A stretch of 33,600 nt of DNA, taken from the IMG/VR virus record IMGVR_UViG_3300037634_003294, positions 1-33,600 of that record; one strand, given 5' to 3'. The notes under the pieces were generated by a model. That model was not told the DNA's origin, did not search any database, and saw only the letters and a list, made by a program, of their open reading frames with translations. This stretch comes from a virus. Its lineage: Duplodnaviria; Caudoviricetes. Of the stretch, positions 2,316-33,600 are shown in pieces; the stretch's first letter is position 1, and each line of letters begins with the position of its first letter. Made by a program: the position numbers and the translations under genes.

Positions 2316-3481
2316 TGCTTATACGACCCCCACTAACTTCGGCTGGCTCCGGCTCAGAACTTATCCAACCAGATAGGCCCAATAGCCCTAGCCAATTTAC
2401 ACGCTGGCTCAACCCACATACGGGTGAGTGGGAGCAATGGGATGGTACACAGTGGATAACACTTGCGCGTCTCAATGCGATTATTTCAGAGTTCGGTAAC
2501 GCGGCGGATGGCGACACTGTTATAACTGACAATACGACGCTGACCAAAAATATGTTCTATGACAGTTTGGTTATTGAAGCTGGTGTCACTGTAGACCCAG
2601 ATGGATTCTCTATCGCTGTGCGTACTAAATTCAGTCATTACGGTACTATAAGTAGGGCTGGCTCCAGAGGGGGTAATGGAAGTGGTCTCACTGCTGGAGC
2701 GGCTGGGACAGCATTATCTCAAAACTATCTCAATGGGTCAGTGGCATCTGGAGCAGGTGGGGCGGGAGCAGGTGGAAACGATGCCTTTAGTACTGCTGGT
2801 AGTGGTGGTGGTGGTGGTGGTTCAGCAATAAATTCCGTAGGTGTAGCGGGAGATGCTGGAGGTGCTGGAGGTGCTGGAGGAGCATCTGGAGGTGAGGGTG
2901 CTGGTGCACCTGGAGGCGCTGCTGGTGCTGGAGGCTCTGTAACAGCACCTATAGCATCAGTTGGTAGCTTTGATAATTTGAATCATGTAGCACGCTGGAG
3001 GACAAACCCCGCAGCACTTGTGCCTCAGCCATTCTTTGGCTCAGCAGGAGCCGGTGGTGGTGGTGGTGGTTCATCTGGACAGGGATTCGGAGGTGGAGGT
3101 GGTGGAGATGGGGGAGATGGAGGAGGTGGAGGTGGAGGGGGTTCCCCAGGAGGAAACATCTTGATTGTCGCAGCTATTGTTTCTGGTAACGGAGCCGTTA
3201 ATGCTGTTGGTGGAAACGGTGGTAATGGAGCGGCAGGAGGACCAGGAGAAGGAAGCGCTCATAGTGGAGGTGGTGGAGCTGGAGGCGCAGGTGGCGCGGG
3301 TGGTGTTGCAGCTTTAATTGCTTCACGAAAAGATGTATTTGAATGGACTACCGATGTTTCTGGCGGCACTGCTGGTAGTGGTGGCGCAGGAGGTGACGGT
3401 GATAACAATGATGGTCTTGCTGGTCAAGACGGTACAAACGGAGACGCCGGAGCTTTCCATGAATTCTTTATTGTCGACTAA
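2315..3481 (+). CDS. Glycine-rich tail fibre/spike-like virion protein
   Basis: 388 aa; 'WEQWDGTQW' N-terminal motif followed by long GGAGG/GGGGG runs; lies in the tail module; TAATG coupling. Confidence 0.55.
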   Translation: MLIRPPLTSAGSGSELIQPDRPNSPSQFTRWLNPHTGEWEQWDGTQWITLARLNAIISEFGNAADGDTVITDNTTLTKNMFYDSLVIEAGVTVDPDGFSIAVRTKFSHYGTISRAGSRGGNGSGLTAGAAGTALSQNYLNGSVASGAGGAGAGGNDAFSTAGSGGGGGGSAINSVGVAGDAGGAGGAGGASGGEGAGAPGGAAGAGGSVTAPIASVGSFDNLNHVARWRTNPAALVPQPFFGSAGAGGGGGGSSGQGFGGGGGGDGGDGGGGGGGGSPGGNILIVAAIVSGNGAVNAVGGNGGNGAAGGPGEGSAHSGGGGAGGAGGAGGVAALIASRKDVFEWTTDVSGGTAGSGGAGGDGDNNDGLAGQDGTNGDAGAFHEFFIVD

Positions 3482-11990: not shown

Positions 11991-12350
11991 ATGCTCCCAG
12001 TAGAACCTAAAACATCGGCAGCACTCGATTCGCTTGTTACTACTATTGATACTAAGCAATCTGAAGAGTTGGCCGCAAGTAAATCATATTGGCAAGGGGC
12101 AAAGACCAGAGATGATAGTACTGCAAAAGTATCTGACCATGATTCATGGGAAACAAAAGGTATAGCTCTGGGAGATATCACAGAAGATGTATCTGTTCAC
12201 ACTTACGATGGACCAAACGGATTAGGCTATATTATAATCATGGAGAAGCCAGTTACAGGTGGCCGATTCATCAAAAGGGTAGTCCACGGTGCTGAGCAGA
12301 GTAGAGCGCAGGACTGGACATTTACCCCCGATGATGATGGCATTACCTGA
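11991..12350 (+). CDS. Hypothetical phage protein (tail-associated)
   Basis: ATG 11991 follows the previous stop; 119 aa; overlaps the start of the LamG gene. Confidence 0.6.
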   Translation: MLPVEPKTSAALDSLVTTIDTKQSEELAASKSYWQGAKTRDDSTAKVSDHDSWETKGIALGDITEDVSVHTYDGPNGLGYIIIMEKPVTGGRFIKRVVHGAEQSRAQDWTFTPDDDGIT

Positions 12351-14490
12351 TAACGGGGACTTTGCACAATCTGGCTCTATTATCTCTCGATGGAAACTCG
12401 ATGAGTCTTCTGGTACAAGAGAGGATAGTGTAGGCTCTAACGATCTAACAGATAACAATACTGTGACAGGAGCTACAGGTAAATTTGGAGATGGTGCCTC
12501 TGCTTTTGCTAGGGCATCTACTGAATATCTTAGCATTTCAGACAACGCATCTCTTAGCCCTGTGGGGGATATATCCTACTTTGCGTGGATAAAGCCTACA
12601 ACCACACCATCAGATGCAGCCTATGTTATAGCTAGTAAATATGAAACCAGCGACAGATCATGGTATTTCGACTATAGCGAGGATGGAGGTGGTGAGAGAC
12701 TCCACTTCTATGTAGAAGACTCCAACGGAGACTCAACCTCTCCTGAAGTAGCAGTAACTCTAGCAAATGACACATGGCATTACGTTGGCTTCGTTTACGA
12801 TGTTTCTGCTTTTGAGGTGAAATTTTACGTCAACGGCGCTCAGGTAGGAGCTACTGGCTCTACAGCAGGGGTAAACGACTTAGAAGACAGCGCAATACCA
12901 TTCTTTATTGGAGCTATTGACTTAGGTTCAGGTGCTACAACTACGTGGGATGGGGATATGCAAGACCATATCTTCTGGAATGTAGAGCTTACAGCAGCAG
13001 AAGTAGCTGCGAACTACAACCTATACGGTACAGGTTTACCAGCTACAGCAGCCCTTCCTCAGTCAGGTTCTCTTATTGGTCGATGGAAGCTAGATGAGCC
13101 GTCAGGTACAAGAGTAGACTCTGTAGGAAGCAATGATCTATCGGACAACAACACAGTCACAGCAGGAGGAGAACAATTCAACAATATTGCAGCGAACTTT
13201 GAAGTAGGAAACGATGAATACCTAAGCGCTTCAGATAGTGCAGCATTATCTCCGACAGGAGATACTTCCTATTTCGCTTGGATAAAATTAGAATCTCAGC
13301 CACCGGCAGGTAATCACAGGTTTATTGCCAGTAAATATGATGGTGGTGATCGTTCATGGTTCTTTAGTGTACGAGAAGAAAGTGGCAACTTCTTAAATCT
13401 ATACATTGAAGATTCAAATGAAGATGGAGGTCAATTTAATGTGTCTTACACATTTGCTAATGATGTTTGGTACCATGTCGGATGGGTATATGACCAATCG
13501 GAAGCTGATGCGACATTCTATGTGAATGGAAAAATGGCAGGTTCGCCAGTATCATTAACGAATGTAGATGATCTTGAAGATAGTTCGTGTGATTTTCGTA
13601 TTGGTGAGATAGATAGTGTCGGAGCCGCAGGATTTGATGGGCTCATGCAAGACCATTGTTGGTGGAATGTTGAACTTACAGCAGCAGAGGTGGAAGACCT
13701 ATACAACGCATACTTCAACCTTCCAGACGAAGGAGATTTGCCTCAGCCTGGCTCAGTCGTAGCCCGTCACACACTCACAGAGGGCGGTGGAACGAGGAAT
13801 GACCAAGTGGGAACAAACCATCTTACTGATAATAATACTGTAACCTCTACGACAGGGATTTCAGAAACTAACTCTAGTGCAGAAAGAGCAGCAGACTTTA
13901 ATGATAGCAACAGCGAATACCTCACTGTCGCAGATAACGCCAATATTTCCATAACAGGAGATATGTCTTGGTTCGCTTGGGTAAGACCTGATACAGCACT
14001 CCAAGGATCAGACGATCAATACTTTCTCGCTTCAAAATACGATCACACTCAGCGTAGTTGGTACATTGCATACGCATTGGAGGATACCAATGAACAGGTG
14101 GATGTCTATATTGCTGATAATTTGACTGGAGATGCGAACAGCAAGAGAGAAATATGGGATGTCACCCTGGCAATAGGACAGTGGTATCACATGGGATTTG
14201 TTTATGATGCTTCGGATGGAGAAGTTGGCTTCTATATAGACGGCGCTCAGGTTGACACTATACGAACAGGATTCGCCACAGATATTGTTGATGGAACTGC
14301 TGCTTACCGAATAGGCGCATTCTCTGGTGGAGGAGGTACAACAGGATTCTGGCCAGGGCAAGTGCAGGATGCAATCATGTGGAATGCAGAGCTAACAGGT
14401 GCAGAAGTAACAACTCTCTACGAGCTTTACACAGTAGAACCCTCTACAGGAACTCCGAGCGGACTTACTCTCATGGGAGTTGGTAATTGA
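12337..14490 (+). CDS. Triple LamG / concanavalin A-like jelly-roll protein (receptor-binding/decoration candidate)
   Basis: Three ~230-aa repeats, each with 'WKLDE.SGTR.DSVGSNDL.DNNTVT', 'S.FAW', 'ASKY', 'WYH.G.VYD', 'FYVNG', 'WN.ELT..EV'. Confidence 0.85.
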   Translation: MALPDNGDFAQSGSIISRWKLDESSGTREDSVGSNDLTDNNTVTGATGKFGDGASAFARASTEYLSISDNASLSPVGDISYFAWIKPTTTPSDAAYVIASKYETSDRSWYFDYSEDGGGERLHFYVEDSNGDSTSPEVAVTLANDTWHYVGFVYDVSAFEVKFYVNGAQVGATGSTAGVNDLEDSAIPFFIGAIDLGSGATTTWDGDMQDHIFWNVELTAAEVAANYNLYGTGLPATAALPQSGSLIGRWKLDEPSGTRVDSVGSNDLSDNNTVTAGGEQFNNIAANFEVGNDEYLSASDSAALSPTGDTSYFAWIKLESQPPAGNHRFIASKYDGGDRSWFFSVREESGNFLNLYIEDSNEDGGQFNVSYTFANDVWYHVGWVYDQSEADATFYVNGKMAGSPVSLTNVDDLEDSSCDFRIGEIDSVGAAGFDGLMQDHCWWNVELTAAEVEDLYNAYFNLPDEGDLPQPGSVVARHTLTEGGGTRNDQVGTNHLTDNNTVTSTTGISETNSSAERAADFNDSNSEYLTVADNANISITGDMSWFAWVRPDTALQGSDDQYFLASKYDHTQRSWYIAYALEDTNEQVDVYIADNLTGDANSKREIWDVTLAIGQWYHMGFVYDASDGEVGFYIDGAQVDTIRTGFATDIVDGTAAYRIGAFSGGGGTTGFWPGQVQDAIMWNAELTGAEVTTLYELYTVEPSTGTPSGLTLMGVGN

Positions 14491-16433: not shown

Positions 16434-18050
16434 CTACGCTTGTGGCTTTTGAGGAACCCTGGTGATTACACCTTCTGTAGTCAAAAACATACCAGCGATA
16501 GATGTAGCGTTTTTCAGCGCACACTTCTCAACCTTCACGGCATTGATTACTTTAGCCTCAAACAAATCCACAACGTCTTTAGTTTTTGCACTAAATCCGT
16601 GCTTTGGGTCTTCGGCTTCGCCAACTTTTAAGGAAATATGCTCACCGTTTACTCCACAGTTTTCAGCTATCTGCTGACACACTGCTGGCAACGCGTCCAT
16701 AACAATCTTCACTCCGACCAGCTCATCCTTACCAAGACCCGCAAAGATTGGGTCATCTACTGAAATAGACGCATTGATGAGTGAGGTACCAGCACCAGGG
16801 ACTATCCCCTCTTGGGCTGCGCTCTTTACAGCCCCTAGTGCATCCTCGACACGATCAAGCTTTTCCCTAGCTTCAGTTTCGGTAGCACCGCCGACCTTAA
16901 CGATGGCAATACCGTGCTTGAGTCGAGCAATACGCTCTTCAAGCTTGTCGTGTTCAAATCCAGGTTCACCGCGCTCCATTCTTTCTCTGATAGATTTGAT
17001 GTGTGCGTCCACATCATCATCTGATGCACCACCTTCGTAGATGGTACACGTCTCTCTGTCTGTGATTACCTTTTTACACCTCCCCAGCATCTCTATGCTC
17101 ATATCCTTTAGGTGCATGTTTGCTTCCGGCATGATGACCTTACCTCCGGTTACAACGGCGAGGTCTTCCAGTGCCTCCTTCTGTCTCTCTCCCCAGAACG
17201 GTGCTCGCACCGCACATGTGAGACAGATATTCTTCATCTTGTTTGCTACTAATGTAGTCAGCGCTCCGGACACAACGTCGTGCGCGATAACCAAAATAGA
17301 AAACGGCTTACCTTCTTTAGCTGCCTCCTCTTCAATCTTCTGCATAATTGGAAGCATGTCATAAGGGTCAGTGAGGGTGTCATCCAAAAGTAGGATGTAC
17401 GGGTTCTCCATTTCATTAATACCGTCCGGAGATGTCATAAAGTATGGAGACAAATATCCATTGTCATACTGCAACCCCTCTGTGAACTGTGTATTGAGAC
17501 CAATGGCTTGCCCTGGCTCAATAACAATCACACCATCTTTACCTAACTTCTCCATGAGGTCAGAAATTGTTTTAGCAATTTCGTCATCACGCGATGCTAC
17601 CTTAGCAATGTCGAAGTAGTCCTCTTTACCATCTGCTTTGATCGAGTCCTTTAGCATCCTCCCCACTACAGCTTCACATGCTATATCCATACCTTCTTTA
17701 ATAGCGATAGCGTTGCGTCCTTTTTGAATCTCTTTAATACCAGCGTCCATCATCTTGTATGTGAGGACCGTAGCTGTAGTCGTACCGTCACCAGCTTCCA
17801 TGTTCGTTTTGTTGGCAGCTTCACGTAGCAAGCACACACCCATCTCTTCCTCTTTATCCTCTAGGTCTATCTCTCGCGCTACACCAATACCATCCATTGT
17901 GAAACGGATACCGTAGTCCTCTTCAATTAAGAGACGGCGGCCAGAGAGGCCCATAGTAACACGTACTCCGTCGTATAGTTGTTTGGCACCATCCATAACT
18001 GCGCCACGGGCGGCTTCGCCAAATACTACTTTTTTTGCTGGGATTTCCAT
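16434..18050 (-). CDS. groEL: Chaperonin GroEL (phage-encoded)
   Basis: 538 aa; 'AGDGTTTATVL', 'YDNGYLSPYF', 'VRAPFWGE', 'KVGGATETE...DRVEDAL', 'GIVPGAG'; no C-terminal GGM tail. Confidence 0.97.
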   Translation of the reverse strand: MEIPAKKVVFGEAARGAVMDGAKQLYDGVRVTMGLSGRRLLIEEDYGIRFTMDGIGVAREIDLEDKEEEMGVCLLREAANKTNMEAGDGTTTATVLTYKMMDAGIKEIQKGRNAIAIKEGMDIACEAVVGRMLKDSIKADGKEDYFDIAKVASRDDEIAKTISDLMEKLGKDGVIVIEPGQAIGLNTQFTEGLQYDNGYLSPYFMTSPDGINEMENPYILLLDDTLTDPYDMLPIMQKIEEEAAKEGKPFSILVIAHDVVSGALTTLVANKMKNICLTCAVRAPFWGERQKEALEDLAVVTGGKVIMPEANMHLKDMSIEMLGRCKKVITDRETCTIYEGGASDDDVDAHIKSIRERMERGEPGFEHDKLEERIARLKHGIAIVKVGGATETEAREKLDRVEDALGAVKSAAQEGIVPGAGTSLINASISVDDPIFAGLGKDELVGVKIVMDALPAVCQQIAENCGVNGEHISLKVGEAEDPKHGFSAKTKDVVDLFEAKVINAVKVEKCALKNATSIAGMFLTTEGVITRVPQKPQA

Positions 18051-18053
18051 AAT

Positions 18054-18332
18054 TTATTCTGGGGTAACGGAAGCTAAAACAGATTCTTCGCGGACAATTT
18101 TGTACGGGATACCATCAATCTCCACATCATCTCCTGCATACTTAGCGAAGAGCACTTGGTCCCCCTTCTTTAGATCGGTCACGTCCGGACCAACATCATG
18201 TACTGTACCTTCTGCTGGATAGTCCTTTTTAGCGGTATCCGGAATTACTATTTTAGAATTTTTCAAACGTGTGTCCTCCCACTGCGGGATGATAACGACT
18301 CTATCATTACGTGGTACAACTTTATTGCTCAT
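18054..18332 (-). CDS. groES: Co-chaperonin GroES
   Basis: 92 aa; 'PRNDRVVI', 'IVIPDTAKK', 'GTVHDVGP', 'GDQVLFAKYAG', 'REESVLA'; directly upstream of groEL. Confidence 0.95.
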   Translation of the reverse strand: MSNKVVPRNDRVVIIPQWEDTRLKNSKIVIPDTAKKDYPAEGTVHDVGPDVTDLKKGDQVLFAKYAGDDVEIDGIPYKIVREESVLASVTPE

Positions 18333-18594
18333 CTGGTGTAGGGGGAATGAATATTGCTCCGCTCGGAGTCTTTCTTAGCAGCCCTTTTTTGCAGAGCTGG
18401 TTGATAGTGTAGTGAAACGAGGTGTTCTTTTTTCCGAACGCTAGAGAGATTGCACGGATAGATGGGATGAACCCATGCTCTTTGTTGTGCTTCTTAACGT
18501 ATTCGAGTATTTCCTCCTGGCGTTTGGTCAGTGGGAAGCGGTTTTTGTAGGATGCCTCTCTCTGCTCCTGTGTTGCATTTGCCTCATCTGTCAT
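18322..18594 (-). CDS. LexA-type winged-helix DNA-binding protein lacking the S24 peptidase domain
   Basis: 'LTKRQEEILEYVKKHNKEHGFIPSIRAISLAFG...TINQLCKKGLLRK' matches the LexA N-terminal domain; only 90 aa. Confidence 0.8.
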   Translation of the reverse strand: MTDEANATQEQREASYKNRFPLTKRQEEILEYVKKHNKEHGFIPSIRAISLAFGKKNTSFHYTINQLCKKGLLRKTPSGAIFIPPTPDEQ

Positions 18595-18603
18595 AACGTG
18601 AAT

Positions 18604-18632
18604 ATGGTACAGTACACCTGTACACTATGCAA
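18604..18632 (-). promoter_or_regulatory. Sigma70-type promoter TTGCAT-17-TACCAT with operator (GTAC-ACCT-GTAC) in the spacer
   Basis: Operator 18608-18627; -10 lies 9 nt before the HTH gene ATG; a divergent TGTACA-17-TACTAT promoter (18619-18647, +) overlaps it. Confidence 0.7.
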
Positions 18633-21870: not shown

Positions 21871-22305
21871 TTAATCGAAGCTGTAATGGTCAACCATGCC
21901 ACTTCCTTGGCATTGGGGGCACGTCCTCCGTTCATGGCGCACATTACCAGGGCTTCTCCGTTGCCTCGTCCGTGTATGCCGGACACGACCTTCAGCTTGT
22001 TTGTTGGCATTTGCCTGTGCCCGCTTGAACGCATCTACCAAATCATCAACGTCTTGGTCTCCGGACCAACCACCATCAAATCCTCTCATACCTTGCCTGT
22101 GGAAAACCTGCTCCGGCTCACCCATACCCTTACCGTCTTTCAATAACTCATACGCTGCATTTATTTTTTTATAAGTTTCCTCACTCCCGCCTCTATCCAG
22201 GTGATGCAGCTTACTCAATTTTCTGTACGCTGCTTTAATATCATCTAAGCTTGCGCCCCTATCTAAATCTAAGATGTCATACGCGTCACCCCGTTCCTTT
22301 GACAT
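21871..22305 (-). CDS. J-domain (DnaJ-like) protein with HLD instead of HPD and one CxxCxGxG repeat
   Basis: 'AYDILDLDRGASLDDIKAAYRKLSKLHHLDRGGSEETYKKINAAYELL'; C-terminal 'CPQCQGSG'. Confidence 0.85.
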   Translation of the reverse strand: MSKERGDAYDILDLDRGASLDDIKAAYRKLSKLHHLDRGGSEETYKKINAAYELLKDGKGMGEPEQVFHRQGMRGFDGGWSGDQDVDDLVDAFKRAQANANKQAEGRVRHTRTRQRRSPGNVRHERRTCPQCQGSGMVDHYSFD

Positions 22306-22513
22306 GTGGACGAGGTGTATCAATGATGACTTCTATAAACCCGTCCGGCGTGTGGATAACTTTAACAATCTCTGCAAGTACACCCCCTTTTTCCAATTCC
22401 TCGCTTTTCTCGCTCTTCATAAAATCTCCAACACGGGGGTCGGTGAAGAGTTTTGAAGCAAAAACTTCCTCTTTGAGACTTTTATCCAATGGTGTTACTG
22501 TTATCTGTAGCAT
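22286..22513 (-). CDS. Hypothetical protein
   Basis: 75 aa from ATG 22513; overlaps the J-domain gene start. Confidence 0.55.
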   Translation of the reverse strand: MLQITVTPLDKSLKEEVFASKLFTDPRVGDFMKSEKSEELEKGGVLAEIVKVIHTPDGFIEVIIDTPRPHVKGTG

Positions 22514-24882: not shown

Positions 24883-25224
24883 TTATTCTTCGTCGTCGTC
24901 TTCTTCTTCGTCGTCGTCTTCTTCTTCGTCGTCGTCTTCTTCTTCGTCGTCGTCTTCTTCTTCGTCTTCTAAGCTTTCGGCTATTAAGCTTTCGGCTATT
25001 TCTTGCCAGTTGACGTTGGACATAAAGGCCCGCGCGTAGCTGATAGCGATATGATCGCTTGGAATTTCGCCGTACCCGGTGATTATCTCTTCTGCTTGCT
25101 CTTCCAGGTGTTGCGATAATTTGTAGGCGTCTCTTTCGCCTTCTATTTCGTATCCGTCAAATATTTCCAGGTTGATACGCCAGGTGGCGTAGTTGGTCCA
25201 GCCGTTGTAAGTTGTATCGCTCAT
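24883..25224 (-). CDS. Early phage protein ('YNGWTNYATW' family) with poly-D/E tail
   Basis: Start re-assigned to ATG 25224 (TAATG coupling); ends in (EEEDDD)n. Confidence 0.8.
   Translation of the reverse strand: MSDTTYNGWTNYATWRINLEIFDGYEIEGERDAYKLSQHLEEQAEEIITGYGEIPSDHIAISYARAFMSNVNWQEIAESLIAESLEDEEEDDDEEEDDDEEEDDDEEEDDDEE
24886..24966. repeat. Perfect 18-bp tandem repeat TTCTTCTTCGTCGTCGTC x4.5 (plus a 15-bp duplication at 24970-24999)
   Basis: Direct reading; encodes the acidic tail and IAESL-IAESL. Confidence 0.95.
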
Positions 25225-25560: not shown

Positions 25561-25626
25561 ATCATATATCAGTTATATATATAACACAATAGCATATTTA
25601 CAGATTGCCCCATAATGGCCTATAAT
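25561..25626. promoter_or_regulatory. Divergent promoters: TTGTGT-17-TATGAT (-, 25561-25589) and TTTACA-18-TATAAT (+, 25597-25626)
   Basis: Lie between the early operon and terS; perfect palindrome GTTATATATATAAC (25572-25585) overlaps the leftward spacer. Confidence 0.65.
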
Positions 25627-25635
25627 AGCCGTATT

Positions 25636-26178
25636 ATGAACGTAATTACAGATAATACACCTTCAGTACCCACCATTTCGCCTACTACGCCGGGTCTTAA
25701 CGAAAAAGCCTCTCCTATTACAGTTCCGCTTCCGGAAGGAATGGAATATACCCAGGAGGAGCTTGTGTTCTGTTCTGAGTTCGTTCGTACGGGTAGCGCG
25801 CCGGAAGCGTTAACAAATACTGGATATAAGGCTAAGAATAAAAATACACTAGCGGCGGCCGCTTCCAGAATGAAGGCAAAGCCTAAAATTGTCGCGCTTG
25901 TTAAAAGAATACGTGAAGGTGTAAGGATTGATGAGACGGAATGGCATAGATCAATAGAGGATAAAATAAGACAAACTCCGGATGACGAGTTCAAACACGA
26001 TCACTGGATTAAGTTGATGACCTTAATCGGTAAAGCTAAAGGCTACATCAAAGACGGTAAGAACAATGTCCAGGTGGGTACAATGAATTTGATTCAAATT
26101 AAATCCGGAACCAAAGGGGACGCAAAACAAAAGATGGACGCGGCAAAAGAGGTGATAGACATTAAAGCAACTACTTAA
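25636..26178 (+). CDS. Terminase small subunit-like protein
   Basis: 'TQEELVFCSEFVRTGSAPEALTNTGYK...AAAASRMKAKPKIVALV' TerS HTH pattern and 'LMTLIGKAKGY' oligomerisation motif; start re-assigned downstream of the -10. Confidence 0.7.
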   Translation: MNVITDNTPSVPTISPTTPGLNEKASPITVPLPEGMEYTQEELVFCSEFVRTGSAPEALTNTGYKAKNKNTLAAAASRMKAKPKIVALVKRIREGVRIDETEWHRSIEDKIRQTPDDEFKHDHWIKLMTLIGKAKGYIKDGKNNVQVGTMNLIQIKSGTKGDAKQKMDAAKEVIDIKATT

Positions 26179-27061
26179 TCAATGGCGCCGTGAATGCATC
26201 GTTAAACGTGTTTTGCGCGTCATCATCGGTTATATGTAGATAGCGTTGTGTTGTGGTAATTGATTCATGACCCATTATTTTGCGTACCGCTTCCACGTCT
26301 CCTGTACGCCGTACAGCCATTGTTGCGAACGTGTGGCGTAGTGTATGCGGCGTTATATCTTTATTAAATCCACAACGTTTAGCGTACTTCTTTACTATCT
26401 GATACAGCCGGCTATCTTTAATCGGAAATAGCTTTTTGTCGTCGTCTAGTGGGTCCCAGCGCCTATTCTTCATATACCGTTTTATAGCCGCTATTGCTTC
26501 CGGCGTAAGGAACACAAAGCGTTCTTTCCCGCCTTTCCCCTCGGTTATCTTTATGCGCTTACTATCCCACTGTATAGCGTCTCTACTGATGGATAGTACT
26601 TCACTACGCCGCAATCCTGTAGTAAGCATTAATAGAATGATGGCGTGGTCTCTTGTGTTGCATTCCGTTTCAAGTAATAAATGTTCGACTTCTTCTTCCG
26701 TGAGTATGTCCGTTGCTGGCTTCTTATTGCGTACTGACTCTATTTCCCTATGCGATATAATCTTATTACAGTCTACACCGGGGCCGTGTACAGCCGCCTT
26801 TATAGCGCATCGAAACAATGTAAGTACAAGGTTTGTGCTAGATGGTTCATATTCCCGGCGTAATAGACGATCATATATTACGCTTAGATCATCGCGTGCC
26901 AGTTCGTCTACAGGCATCGTGTGGCCTTCCGGGTATACCTCGTGGAATATACGTTGACTATTCCGGTACGCCTTAAGTGTGCGGGGCTTACAACCTCTAT
27001 TCTTAGAAGCTGATATATAGTCATTGATAGCCGTGTGTACGGTGTAGCGTGTGTGGTCCAT
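26171..27061 (-). CDS. XerC/D-like tyrosine recombinase
   Basis: 296 aa from ATG 27061; catalytic R (TGLRRSE), K (GKGGKER), HxxR (PHTLRHTFAT), H (MGH), Y (TTQRY); no arm-binding domain. Confidence 0.93.
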   Translation of the reverse strand: MDHTRYTVHTAINDYISASKNRGCKPRTLKAYRNSQRIFHEVYPEGHTMPVDELARDDLSVIYDRLLRREYEPSSTNLVLTLFRCAIKAAVHGPGVDCNKIISHREIESVRNKKPATDILTEEEVEHLLLETECNTRDHAIILLMLTTGLRRSEVLSISRDAIQWDSKRIKITEGKGGKERFVFLTPEAIAAIKRYMKNRRWDPLDDDKKLFPIKDSRLYQIVKKYAKRCGFNKDITPHTLRHTFATMAVRRTGDVEAVRKIMGHESITTTQRYLHITDDDAQNTFNDAFTAPLIK

Positions 27062-27114
27062 AGTGTGGGGTGTGGTAAGTAGTAGAGAGTAATACATACT
27101 ATGCCGTTGCATAG

Positions 27115-27134
27115 CACTGAACACCTGTACCCCG
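27115..27134. promoter_or_regulatory. Operator variant CACTGAACA-CC-TGTACCCCG upstream of the recombinase
   Basis: Core GAAC-ACCT-GTAC; a related half-site (ATAGCAATGTACACCT) lies at 27222-27237. Confidence 0.5.
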
Positions 27135-27418
27135 TGCCCATAGGCTAAAGAGCGCGTGCGCGCGTGGTGTGTGAGGTGTTGATGATAGTATATAGTTATC
27201 AGCACACGTATGCAAGCGTATATAGCAATGTACACCTATTTGACGTCAATCCCGGTCCAGGGGGTGGGGTATGCACACTTTTTCATATTGGCGGGCATTG
27301 TGTCTAAGCATGCTTTCCTTAGCCGTACGAAGCCGAAAACGCGAATCCAGTTCCTTTGACGCGCCGAGCAGAAGCAACTCTTGTATGTGTGTGCGCGCGT
27401 GCGCGTTTCTTTTAAGTG

Positions 27419-27446
27419 GGTACTGATAATATTTTTTATGGTAAAT
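27419..27446 (+). other. dif/cer-like Xer recombination site GGTACTGATAA-TATTTT-TTATGGTAAAT
   Basis: 11-6-11 architecture; left arm 8/11 and right arm 10/11 to E. coli dif (GGTGCGCATAA-TGTATA-TTATGTTAAAT); intergenic, about 360 bp upstream of the recombinase. Confidence 0.75.
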
Positions 27447-27597
27447 AGTATGTATTATTATGACATATAAAAGTTACACTGTACCACTAATCTGACCGGG
27501 AGTGAGGGGTAAGCAGTATTTACGGGTGAATCGCGAAAGTAATTTATTTGACTTTTTCTTTTTTTTTGTTCTACCTATGACAATGGAGTTCAATTTA

Positions 27598-27619
27598 TTT
27601 TTATTATATATAATAAAAA
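27598..27619. repeat. Perfect 22-bp AT palindrome TTTTTATTATATATAATAAAAA
   Basis: Direct reading, within the AT-rich non-coding region. Confidence 0.8.
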
Positions 27620-27779
27620 AAAGTCAAGTAAACGATGTAAACAATTCTTTCCCTTCCCTTTACCCCCCTTTGACAATGACAGTGTGTAAACTTTATATGT
27701 TATAATATATCCTCTATTTAGTCCTTATGGTGAAAAGCCCCATACAACGGCATATATTCACCTATACAACGGATTTACT

Positions 27780-28100
27780 CTATTTCAAAAGCGCCTTAAG
27801 GCCAATAGCAATGGCCACCACACCTCCAACAAGACTCAAAACCCACATGATCGCCCTTTTTCCGAATGTAATGTTGTCGAACCACCTCACCACCGGCTCC
27901 ACTTTCACACTCAATCTTTCTATCGCGTCCATGACTTCTCTGTGTTCTGTGTCTCGCCCCTTCTTTTCTGCATCTAGTTTCTGGTTTATAGCACCAAAAG
28001 ACTTCTCGTCGTCTTTATTGTGTTTGAGCATAGCCTTCTTAATATCAGCTATATCTCCTGCGTTCTTTTCAATAGTTGATGAGTTCATATTACCTACCAT
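27780..28100 (-). CDS. Coiled-coil protein with C-terminal TM (holin/XhlA-like)
   Basis: Charged helical N-terminal part followed by 'AIMWVLSLVGGVVAIAIGLKALLK'. Confidence 0.6.
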   Translation of the reverse strand: MVGNMNSSTIEKNAGDIADIKKAMLKHNKDDEKSFGAINQKLDAEKKGRDTEHREVMDAIERLSVKVEPVVRWFDNITFGKRAIMWVLSLVGGVVAIAIGLKALLK

Positions 28101-32741: not shown

Positions 32742-33467
32742 CTATTTAAAAAGGTAATGGCGCATTGTATAAAGAAGGTTCTCGTCTGGGTTCTCCTTTT
32801 TGGAGAAGTTGTCGAGGACCCATTGCATATAACCACGGTCAGTGCCCGCGATGGGCTGACCTTTATGCTTACCGAAGCGCCAGGAACGGTAAAGGATTGG
32901 TTGAGCGCTGATCTTCTCCATGACTTCAATAGCTGCAAATGTGTCGCAATTCATAGCGTTCATCACTCTCTTGCATAGGTAATCAAACAAGTGGTCCAGT
33001 ACGATCACATCCCCCATAGCGTCATGTGCCTGGAGATTTTTTGGTTCCTTCTTATACAAGTCCAGTGCGTAACGAAGTATTTGTAGGCTGTGCCCCTCAT
33101 TGGCGTCTTGCTCCGGGAGCAGCTTGTACGCGACCTTGTACGTGCATACATGTCTTGGGATATACACACCTTCGTTATTCATCATCTTAATATCGAATGA
33201 CGCGTTATGCGCTATGGCTACAGTCTCATCGTCAAACAACTCTTCTAGCTCTGGAAGGATTGTGGAAAACTCCGGCTTTCCTTCAACGTCTTCGTTTGTC
33301 GTGTGGTGCACCGCCATCGCGCCAATCTCTATAGGGATAGGTGGCTTGAACATTCCATTAAACTCTTTTGGTTTTCCACCCTCATATACTTTGTATGCGA
33401 GCTGGATAACTCGTGATGAGCCTAGTTCTTTGCCAGTGGTTTCTGTATCGAATAGAACGTATCTCAT
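32742..33467 (-). CDS. DEDDh 3'-5' exonuclease (DnaQ/ExoX-like)
   Basis: 'FDTETTG', 'AHNASFD', 'AHDAMGD'; C-terminal 'FGKHKG...Y..W' as in ExoX-like proteins. Confidence 0.92.
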   Translation of the reverse strand: MRYVLFDTETTGKELGSSRVIQLAYKVYEGGKPKEFNGMFKPPIPIEIGAMAVHHTTNEDVEGKPEFSTILPELEELFDDETVAIAHNASFDIKMMNNEGVYIPRHVCTYKVAYKLLPEQDANEGHSLQILRYALDLYKKEPKNLQAHDAMGDVIVLDHLFDYLCKRVMNAMNCDTFAAIEVMEKISAQPILYRSWRFGKHKGQPIAGTDRGYMQWVLDNFSKKENPDENLLYTMRHYLFK

Positions 33468-33598
33468 AAGAACTGGCGGGAAAGTTGTTGTGCGGCCTCC
33501 TGGAAATCAACACCATTTATGTGCATTACAAGGTCCATTGTGCTACCCTGGCTAACCCCATTTTGCTCAATTCCGGAGAACCGTTTCCATTTATTGTT
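33464..33598 (-). CDS. C-terminus of a protein ending in a DnaG CHC2 Zn-finger-like domain (partial; not in ORF track)
   Basis: NNKWKRFSGIEQNGVSQGSTMDLVMHINGVDFQEAAQQLSRQFL matches the 'W..F...G..IDLV....G.SF.EA...L' pattern; ATGA overlap with the exonuclease. Confidence 0.6.
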   Translation of the reverse strand, partial: NNKWKRFSGIEQNGVSQGSTMDLVMHINGVDFQEAAQQLSRQFL

Positions 33599-33600
33599 TC

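What the first reader, a model, noticed from the sequence alone, without database searches (positions are those of the whole stretch)
26171..27446. Phage-encoded Xer-like recombinase with an adjacent dif/cer-like site
Seen: GGTACTGATAA-TATTTT-TTATGGTAAAT at 27419-27446, about 360 bp upstream of a 296-aa tyrosine recombinase lacking an arm-binding domain, with phage genes on both sides (unintegrated state). Known: E. coli dif is GGTGCGCATAA-TGTATA-TTATGTTAAAT, the ColE1 cer XerD arm is TTATGGTAAAT (identical to this right arm), and IMEX elements such as CTXphi integrate at dif using host XerCD and encode no recombinase. Inference: a tailed phage with its own Xer/dif module, used either to resolve dimers of a plasmid-like prophage (it also has primase and MCM-like helicase) or to integrate at the host dif. 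The recombinase also has an operator copy upstream, linking it to the LexA-like regulon.
Basis: partly seen in the sequence, partly recalled or inferred. Interest (0 to 1): 0.8.

Follow-up and report, generated by a model that had tools for sequence, protein, structure and literature searches.

The report
Phage recombinase with twin target sites
A marine bacterial virus carries an intact DNA-recombining enzyme gene with two related short palindromic sites upstream, which the enzyme likely uses to close or separate copies of the viral genome, while the reported look-alike of the host's chromosome-separation site is real here but only half kept in the one known relative.

Summary
The 28-mer and the intact 296-aa arm-less tyrosine recombinase are real, and the site is more dif-like than chance (18 of 22 arm bases; 1 of 300 shuffles). 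In the only relative found (about 50% protein identity), the upstream non-coding DNA is conserved but the XerD-like arm is replaced. The gene lies tail-to-tail with a probable terminase small subunit gene. Bacillus plasmid-prophage B83 has the same layout: palindrome plus extra half-site before a Xer-like gene beside terS. Best reading (0.45): a Cre/loxP-like module in which the phage enzyme likely circularises or monomerises its own genome. Use of the reported site by host XerCD remains the main rival (0.25). No host, attB, integrated copy or partition gene was found. The scan noted a similar module in other phages (e1-5901848, unchecked), nothing on this DNA. Verdict: new variant of a known kind, interest 0.4.

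The parts
26171..27061 (-). Arm-less (simple) tyrosine recombinase, 296 aa, catalytic R-K-H-R-H-Y intact
   Evidence: below all NCBIfam Xer cut-offs
27179..27205 (+). Site A: TTGATGATAG-tatatag-TTATCAGCAC, 10-7-10 dyad of the half-site GTRCYGATAA; a full match on both arms in the relative; candidate crossover core (inferred)
27254..27418 (.). Conserved non-coding block between the two sites (150 of 165 identical in the relative); function unknown, candidate accessory DNA
   Evidence: no Rfam match, no significant fold
27419..27446 (+). Site B: the reported dif/cer-like 11-6-11 site; left arm is the shared half-site, right arm is XerD-like and not kept in the relative
27119..27130 (-). SOS-like box GTAC-AGGT-GTTC in the recombinase promoter region; one mismatch in the relative
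27456..27479 (-). 24-nt inverted-repeat arm containing an extended -10-like element facing site B and the recombinase (promoter role inferred)
27506..27632 (.). AT-rich conserved core (114 of 127 identical) with inward-facing TTGACT elements; candidate origin or regulatory hub (inferred)
27684..27707 (+). Second 24-nt inverted-repeat arm with TGTTATAAT, facing away from the recombinase; followed by short direct repeats at 27739-27772 that are more numerous in the relative
25615..26178 (+). Probable terminase small subunit, convergent with the recombinase (8-bp overlap)
   Evidence: PHROG 51 E 6e-6; Pfam Terminase_2 E 9e-4, below cut-off
18322..18594 (-). LexA-type DNA-binding-domain protein (90 aa) with the same box upstream at 18612-18623

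Best explanation
The phage encodes an intact arm-less tyrosine recombinase beside a probable terminase small subunit gene, and two related dyads lie upstream; the enzyme likely binds the shared half-site GTRCYGATAA and would recombine copies of its own genome there, closing terminally redundant DNA into a circle or splitting multimers, as P1 Cre does at loxP. Shown: gene, catalytic residues, both dyads, and which parts the relative keeps. Inferred: binding, site A as crossover core with site B's inner arm as an accessory or alternative site, and control through the upstream SOS-like box. Untested: any recombination and a plasmid-like prophage state.
For: (1) The two best dyads of the half-site in the window are sites A and B (3 and 4 mismatches; shuffles average 0.42 at 4 or fewer, maximum 2 in 12), and L007 has A with 0 mismatches and B with 4. 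With the window's arm as seed, L007 has 4 matches against 0.13 expected, 0 of 200 shuffles; three are upstream and one is inside the gene. (2) Site A keeps its arms but not its spacer (tatatag vs tgtagtc), as expected for recombination between identical genome copies and not for a fixed host attB. (3) Residues 211-250, which include the helix before HxLR, are 95% identical in the two enzymes, so a shared target is plausible. (4) Four-fold degenerate sites in the gene are only 23 of 57 identical while the cis blocks are 90-91% identical. (5) B83, shown to exist as a circular plasmid (PMC6669507, passages), has terS tail-to-tail with a Xer-like gene and an 11-6-11 palindrome plus an extra half-site upstream. 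JGon-2020a has the same half-site with a different spacer, between terL and its recombinase. (6) A Xer-like gene is rare beside ordinary dif-like sites in viral contigs: 2 of 120 loci, one of them this phage; only 80 of the 120 had 3 kb or more of DNA.
Against: Only one relative is known, and its replaced arm rests on one contig: no laid contig covered L007 406-501. In the window, site A's outer arm has 3 mismatches while site B has a full XerD-like arm. Both arms of B are identical to a site on a ColE1-type plasmid, which is hard to explain as chance. The half-site consensus was derived post hoc from these two phages and resembles ordinary XerC arms. The N-terminal domain, which makes most base contacts in XerH (PMC5241119), is only 31% identical between the two enzymes. 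No partition or Rep gene was found in 40 of 168 window ORFs or 4 extra L004 ORFs scanned; about 8 kb of the 45.2-kb contig was never seen. The terminase-linked layout held in 2 of 5 isolated phages inspected, whose enzymes are only 24-28% identical to this one.
Confidence: 0.45

Rival explanations
1. Site B is a true XerC/XerD site worked by the host's enzymes, for dimer resolution as at plasmid cer-type sites or for entry at the host dif as in IMEX elements. The 165-bp block would be accessory DNA, and the phage enzyme would act at site A or assist.
For: 18 of 22 arm bases match E. coli dif. 22 of 28 match the predicted Chlamydia trachomatis dif by my count, and CTGATAA occurs in 26 rows of the predicted-dif table (PMC3025954 S2). 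Both arms are identical in an RNAI-bearing plasmid locus (L041, with an identical copy in L025). The conserved block sits on the XerC side and is about the size of the cer accessory region (PMC5357621; PMC2409434). The spacer is nearly kept in L007 (5 of 6). Degenerate XerD arms are known in TLC and GGI (PMC6744903). By my arithmetic, the seven bases after TTAT matching a XerD arm by chance is about 1 in 10,000.
Against: The XerD-like arm is replaced in L007. There is no similarity to plasmid accessory DNA above shuffles. No GTDB site matches 28/28; the best is 25/28 in Priestia. No integrated relative or joint was found. It does not explain the symmetric 7-bp site A or the intact phage enzyme.
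Confidence: 0.25
2. The enzyme is an arm-less integrase. The A-block-B region is attP, and the conserved block or a spacer matches an unknown host attB.
For: Arm-less recombinases can integrate phages (Brujita group; 10.1101/542381, passages). The upstream SOS-like box suits an induction-linked integrase. In L239 the same half-site motif flanks a tRNA/tmRNA-like 3' fragment before a simple recombinase.
Against: No tRNA or Rfam match lies in the region. An exact 24-mer of the block has 0 hits in GTDB. Site A's spacer is not conserved. The gene lies beside terS rather than in a repressor cassette. All assemblies seen are unsplit.
Confidence: 0.15
3. The protein acts mainly as a DNA-binding regulator, like SPbeta MrpR, and the dyads are operators over its own and neighbouring promoters.
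For: MrpR has the recombinase fold and binds a repeated element as a repressor (PMC10516654, abstract). Both dyads lie just downstream of promoter-like elements. In phage G002 the same dyad recurs 8 times at 4 or fewer mismatches with different spacers, against 0.08 expected.
Against: All six catalytic residues are kept in both phages, whereas MrpR has lost activity. Only two good dyads exist in the window.
Confidence: 0.08
4. Sites A and B, or the 24-nt inverted repeats, bound an invertible switch.
For: A and B are in inverted orientation; 24-nt inverted repeats flank promoter-like DNA.
Against: The spacers of A (7 bp) and B (6 bp) differ in length and sequence. The middles of the two 24-nt arms differ in L007. 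Orientation is the same in all contigs and in L007, and no strand-switch joints were seen in three runs (contigs drop rare variants).
Confidence: 0.04

Closest known systems
P1 Cre/loxP (PMC2409434, passages)
   Same: Phage-encoded arm-less tyrosine recombinase with a symmetric site a few hundred bases upstream of its gene, keeping a circular prophage monomeric.
   Different: The enzyme here is Xer-like in sequence. Half-sites are 10-11 bp and XerC-like, with 7- and 6-bp spacers and two dyads. No partition system was seen.
Bacillus phage B83 gp02 and Parageobacillus phage JGon-2020a recombinase
   Same: Xer-like gene inside the packaging module (tail-to-tail with annotated terS in B83), with a palindrome plus extra half-site(s) upstream.
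   Different: About 26-28% protein identity and a different half-site (TTGCGTGKAA). B83 has ParM, RepA and a second recombinase. The passages I read do not describe the B83 site.
XerC/XerD at dif and at ColE1-type plasmid sites (PMC3025954, PMC5357621)
   Same: Site B has 11-6-11 geometry, inner ATAA/TTAT, 18 of 22 arm bases of E. coli dif, and conserved DNA on the XerC side.
   Different: One phage enzyme, below XerC and XerD cut-offs. The XerD-like arm is not conserved, there is no similarity to plasmid accessory DNA, and a second symmetric site is present.
Single-recombinase modules XerS/difSL, XerH/difH, XerA (PMC5357621, passages)
   Same: One enzyme with an adjacent site; the best profile and PDB hits are XerA.
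   Different: On a phage, not a chromosome terminus; below the XerA (184 of 220) and XerS (100 of 267) cut-offs; own long branch in the tree.
TnpI/IRS of Tn4430 (PMC2847244, introduction part 1)
   Same: A tyrosine recombinase using extra copies of its own binding motif as accessory sites for resolution selectivity.
   Different: IRS is 116 bp with tandem accessory motifs; here the second dyad is about 240 bp away and inverted.
IMEX (CTX, VGJ, TLC, GGI; PMC5357621, PMC6744903)
   Same: A dif-like site in a mobile element; a degenerate XerD arm (as in L007) is known in TLC and GGI.
   Different: IMEX rely on host XerCD; this tailed phage encodes a recombinase, and no dif-integrated copy was found.

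Membership tests
Tyrosine recombinase, simple (arm-less) type | Catalytic R-K-H-R-H/W-Y set in a Phage_integrase domain | tested here: met
Tyrosine recombinase, simple (arm-less) type | No N-terminal arm-binding domain | tested here: met
   296 aa, aligns to XerD from residue 25 and XerA from residue 40; the relative has Phage_int_SAM_1 at 26-88
XerC / XerD / XerA / XerS orthologue | Score above the curated family cut-off | tested here: not met
   XerA 184/220, XerC 157/335, XerD 150/330, XerS 100/267
XerC / XerD / XerA / XerS orthologue | Groups with named chromosomal Xer proteins | tested here: not met
   P0001+P0003 form their own long branch outside the named XerD and named Patescibacteria groups; 36 rows, long-branch warning
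XerCD dif/cer-type site (site B) | 11-bp XerC arm, 6-8-bp spacer, 11-bp XerD arm | tested here: met
XerCD dif/cer-type site (site B) | XerD arm conserved in relatives | tested here: not met
   replaced in 1 of 1 relative; rests on one contig
XerCD dif/cer-type site (site B) | cer-like accessory sequence for PepA/ArgR | tested here: inconclusive
   a conserved block is present on the XerC side, but with no similarity above shuffles to 13 flanks, 6 of them from the plasmid-type loci
XerCD dif/cer-type site (site B) | Bound and recombined by XerC and XerD | not testable with these tools
   needs EMSA and a resolution assay
IMEX | No own recombinase; uses host XerCD | tested here: not met
   an intact recombinase gene is present
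IMEX | Found integrated at host dif | tested here: inconclusive
   no integrated copy in GTDB scans or contigs; host unknown
Cre/loxP-like phage resolution module | Own enzyme with an adjacent symmetric core site | tested here: met
   site A; binding inferred, not shown
Cre/loxP-like phage resolution module | Extrachromosomal prophage with partition and replication genes | tested here: inconclusive
   primase and helicase-like genes present; no Par or Rep hit in the ORFs scanned; about 8 kb unseen
Cre/loxP-like phage resolution module | Resolves directly repeated sites | not testable with these tools
   needs an in vivo or in vitro assay
MrpR-like repressor | Loss of catalytic activity or residues | tested here: not met
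   all six residues are present in both phages

The most novel reading that the evidence does not exclude
A tailed phage runs a hybrid Xer system. Its own recombinase recognises XerC-type half-sites and works a symmetric site alone, while a neighbouring full XerC/XerD site lets host enzymes, or a phage-host mixed tetramer, act on the same locus. The two known relatives catch the switch in progress: one has the perfect symmetric site and a decayed XerD arm, the other the reverse. The terminase-linked layout, shared with B83 and JGon-2020a, would mark an undescribed widespread route for circularising headful-packaged DNA next to the packaging start.
Probability: 0.12. Interest if true: 0.75.

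Novelty: new variant of a known kind. Interest (0 to 1): 0.4.

Why it matters
Xer-like genes in plasmid prophages are assumed to resolve dimers (PMC8026635), but the passages I read name no target sites. This locus supplies testable sites for a new, deeply branching enzyme and points to the same layout in a cultured phage, B83, where it can be tested now. A compact recombinase with a 27-bp site and free spacer could be a new Cre-like tool. If host XerCD also uses site B, it would link self-encoded and host-borrowed Xer recombination in one element.

Tried and rejected
Structured RNA in the conserved block: no Rfam family, no tRNA/tmRNA, folding no better than shuffles on either strand (z +1.7, +0.8). 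No RNA holder listed. 27440-27720 folds as DNA at z -3.1, which reflects the inverted repeats that I read as outward-facing promoters. Small ORFs in the block: differences are not mostly silent (read), so not pursued. More relatives: viral scans with the recombinase, its alignment, terS, the helicase alignment and two DNA patterns found only this phage; isolated phages and plasmids gave no real match to 27100-27780. The profile search of cluster representatives never ran, so deeper relatives may exist. Host dif: 79 GTDB sites, 63 inside long open frames and so mostly chance; a recombinase-like fragment was near only L067. Symmetric site as a host site in the phylum of L067's genome (titled Chloroflexi): 1 of 401 genomes, with no recombinase among the ORFs listed within 1.5 kb; 1 of 5 other genomes at 2 mismatches. 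L239 first looked like independent proof: it was the only fully symmetric site among 29 loci and lies 340 bp before a recombinase. I downgraded it because its enzyme is 31% identical over 150 residues and the dyad recurs across that genome. A contig break at 27412-27432 in run X20 has no loose end and is not evidence. The AlphaFold model was poor (pLDDT 54) and was not used. The LexA-like protein has no homologue, so it gave no host clue. KOPS-like octamers are too few (5) to show polarity. PMC10187176 and PMC3108266 held nothing relevant.

Full report
Observation. The 28-mer lies at 27419-27446, 357 bp upstream of a 296-aa ORF at 26171-27061 on the minus strand. The protein is a tyrosine recombinase with all six catalytic residues and no room for an arm-binding domain. 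It scores below every NCBIfam Xer cut-off, best XerA 184 of 220. In a 36-row tree it forms its own long branch with its one close homologue (long-branch warning). The site matches 18 of 22 arm bases of E. coli dif as printed in PMC3025954 (main-text passages); 1 of 300 shuffles did as well. Its left arm is of a common type: CTGATAA occurs in 26 rows of that paper's table S2, of which I saw 21.

Context. The window is a 33.6-kb virus record. The same phage occurs on a 45.2-kb contig that adds a terminase large subunit; about 8 kb of it could not be read. Genes include GroEL/GroES, a LexA-type DNA-binding protein, an M23 peptidase, a Toprim primase and an AAA+ helicase-like protein (40 of 168 ORFs scanned). 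No partition or Rep gene was found. Twenty marine metagenome runs from 16 studies hold the DNA, 19 flagged as possible sources. The host is unknown. Two of 120 listed helicase homologues and several recombinase hits are named from Patescibacteria, which is a lead only. The recombinase overlaps tail-to-tail with a probable terS gene (25615-26178; PHROG E 6e-6, Pfam below cut-off).

The conservation test. Among 524 homologues only one cluster is close (50%); the next are at 37% or less over most of the length. Its locus L007 keeps about 780 bp of upstream non-coding DNA at 78%. Four-fold degenerate sites in the gene agree at 23 of 57, while the blocks 27254-27418 and 27506-27632 agree at 150 of 165 and 114 of 127. 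At the reported site the left arm (9 of 11) and spacer (5 of 6) persist, but the XerD-like arm is replaced and 24 nt are added. This rests on one contig. Four runs hold exact pieces of L007, including 569-993 in X15, but none covers 406-501, and these runs may include its source.

The second site. A search for dyads kept in both phages found TTGATGATAG-tatatag-TTATCAGCAC at 27179-27205 (site A), which in L007 reads GTGCTGATAA-tgtagtc-TTATCGGTAC. Its arms are the same half-site, GTRCYGATAA, as the left arm of the reported site (site B). With the window's arm as seed, L007 has 4 matches against 0.13 expected (one lies inside the gene); over the whole window the same seed is not enriched (4 against 1.97). 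The symmetric pattern matches once in each phage. A and B are the two best dyads of the window. The consensus is post hoc, from two phages. In the window A has a weak outer arm and B a full XerD-like arm; in L007 it is the reverse.

Mechanism. A symmetric site with conserved arms and a free spacer fits one enzyme recombining identical genome copies, since strand exchange tests spacer homology (PMC2847244, introduction part 1). The stretch 211-250 is 95% identical in the two enzymes, but the N-terminal domain, which makes most base contacts in XerH (PMC5241119, passages), is 31% identical, so a shared target is plausible, not proven. Extra copies of an enzyme's own motif serve as accessory sites in TnpI/IRS, and P1 keeps loxP upstream of cre (PMC2409434, passages). 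That pac sites often lie at terS, and that P1 uses Cre to circularise, is recalled. I infer circularisation or multimer resolution, at 0.45.

Precedent found here. B83, reported to exist as a circular plasmid (PMC6669507, passages), has terS tail-to-tail with Xer-like gp02. Upstream lie an 11-6-11 palindrome with 10 of 11 symmetric bases and a third half-site (3 of 200 shuffles). JGon-2020a has the same half-site three times with another spacer, between terL and its recombinase (12 of 200 shuffles); its convergent ORF had no Pfam hit. Three other phages inspected lacked this layout, so it held in 2 of 5, chosen by me from 40 listed hits.

The case for host XerCD. A GTDB scan gave 79 sites in 78 loci. 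None is 28/28, but both arms are identical in an RNAI-bearing ColE1-type plasmid locus from a Yersinia pestis assembly and its copy in another assembly, and differ by one base in further such plasmid loci. That these are the plasmids' Xer sites is my inference. The conserved block lies on the XerC side, like cer accessory DNA (PMC5357621, passages), but shows no similarity to those flanks. Degenerate XerD arms are known in TLC and GGI (PMC6744903, passages). In IMG/VR about 730 stretches carry a generic dif-like site; of 120 fetched, 81 sites were intergenic and 2 loci had a tyrosine recombinase, one being this phage. I give this rival 0.25.

Other rivals. Arm-less integrases exist (10.1101/542381, passages), but no attB, tRNA fragment, joint or integrated copy was found. 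A repressor role like MrpR (PMC10516654, abstract) is weakened by the intact active site. L239 has the same symmetric dyad 340 bp before a distant recombinase, but the dyad recurs 8 times in that genome, so it is ambiguous.

Regulation. G[TA]AC-N4-GT[AT]C occurs 8 times against 1.5 expected (maximum 6 in 300 shuffles; motif chosen after seeing the repeats). Four copies lie upstream of minus-strand genes, including the LexA-like gene and the recombinase. L007 keeps it with one mismatch. The likeness to SOS boxes is recalled; one search did not confirm it.

Novelty. Xer-like recombinases in plasmid prophages are known (PMC8026635, passages). I found no description of a terminase-linked recombinase with its site, or of a tailed phage with its own Xer-like enzyme beside a dif-like site, in searches. 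These cover open-licence papers only, and I read no supplements except PMC3025954 S2; those of the B83 and plasmid-prophage papers may bear on this. Earlier notes of this scan describe similar modules elsewhere (unchecked) and nothing on this DNA. Verdict: a real module, a new variant of a known kind, interest 0.4.

Noticed in passing
G002 (L239, L247, L248), e.g. C1 3857, 6284, 9716, 20748, 23757, 27127, 28075, 30987: A 35.8-kb phage record with terminal repeats and two tyrosine recombinases has 8 dif-like dyads of the same half-site with different 6-7-bp spacers (0.08 expected); the two best bracket a cassette holding the repressor-like gene and the second recombinase. Could be an MrpR/SPBRE-like operator set or gene-cassette sites.
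   Followed up: partly
L251 2366-2393 and 2465-2474 (Bacillus phage B83, upstream of gp02); L252 1787-1918 (JGon-2020a): A palindrome plus extra half-sites lie upstream of the terminase-linked Xer-like gene; a likely cognate site not described in the passages read.
   Followed up: partly
L131 1-1392 (provirus G001): A provirus begins with a long integrase gene whose 5' end overlaps a canonical dif-like site: a possible phage with its own integrase inserted at dif.
   Followed up: no
L092-L211: About 730 IMG/VR stretches carry generic dif-like sites, some on contigs over 30 kb; one 28-mer starting ATGTCCGATAA recurs in about ten loci.
   Followed up: no
window 16434-18332 (-), 21871-22323 (-): GroEL, GroES and a DnaJ-domain protein are encoded in a phage of about 45 kb, with the LexA-like gene and its box directly upstream of groES-groEL.
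   Followed up: no
window 27456-27772: Two outward-facing extended -10-like elements flank an AT-rich conserved core, followed by short direct repeats that are more numerous in L007; the rightward element points antisense into a 106-aa gene. Candidate origin or small RNA.
   Followed up: partly
window 26131-26267 and 26650-26831: Runs X6 and X8 hold variant contigs about 10-17% different in these patches of the recombinase and terS ends, and two database copies of the protein lack one residue next to the catalytic lysine; the gene looks mosaic among co-occurring strains.
   Followed up: no
L025, L019, L034, L049, L078, L029, L081: Enterobacterial-looking small plasmid sequences sit in assemblies of unrelated bacteria (for example Amphibacillus, Cutibacterium), probably contamination.
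   Followed up: no
window 33459-33600 vs L004 3316-3594: The 45.2-kb contig has about 136 extra bases just before the exonuclease gene compared with the window.
   Followed up: no
window 24883-24972; 2744-3400; 12289-14490: Acidic 18-nt tandem repeat at a protein end; glycine-rich repeats; a protein with three laminin-G-like domains.
   Followed up: no
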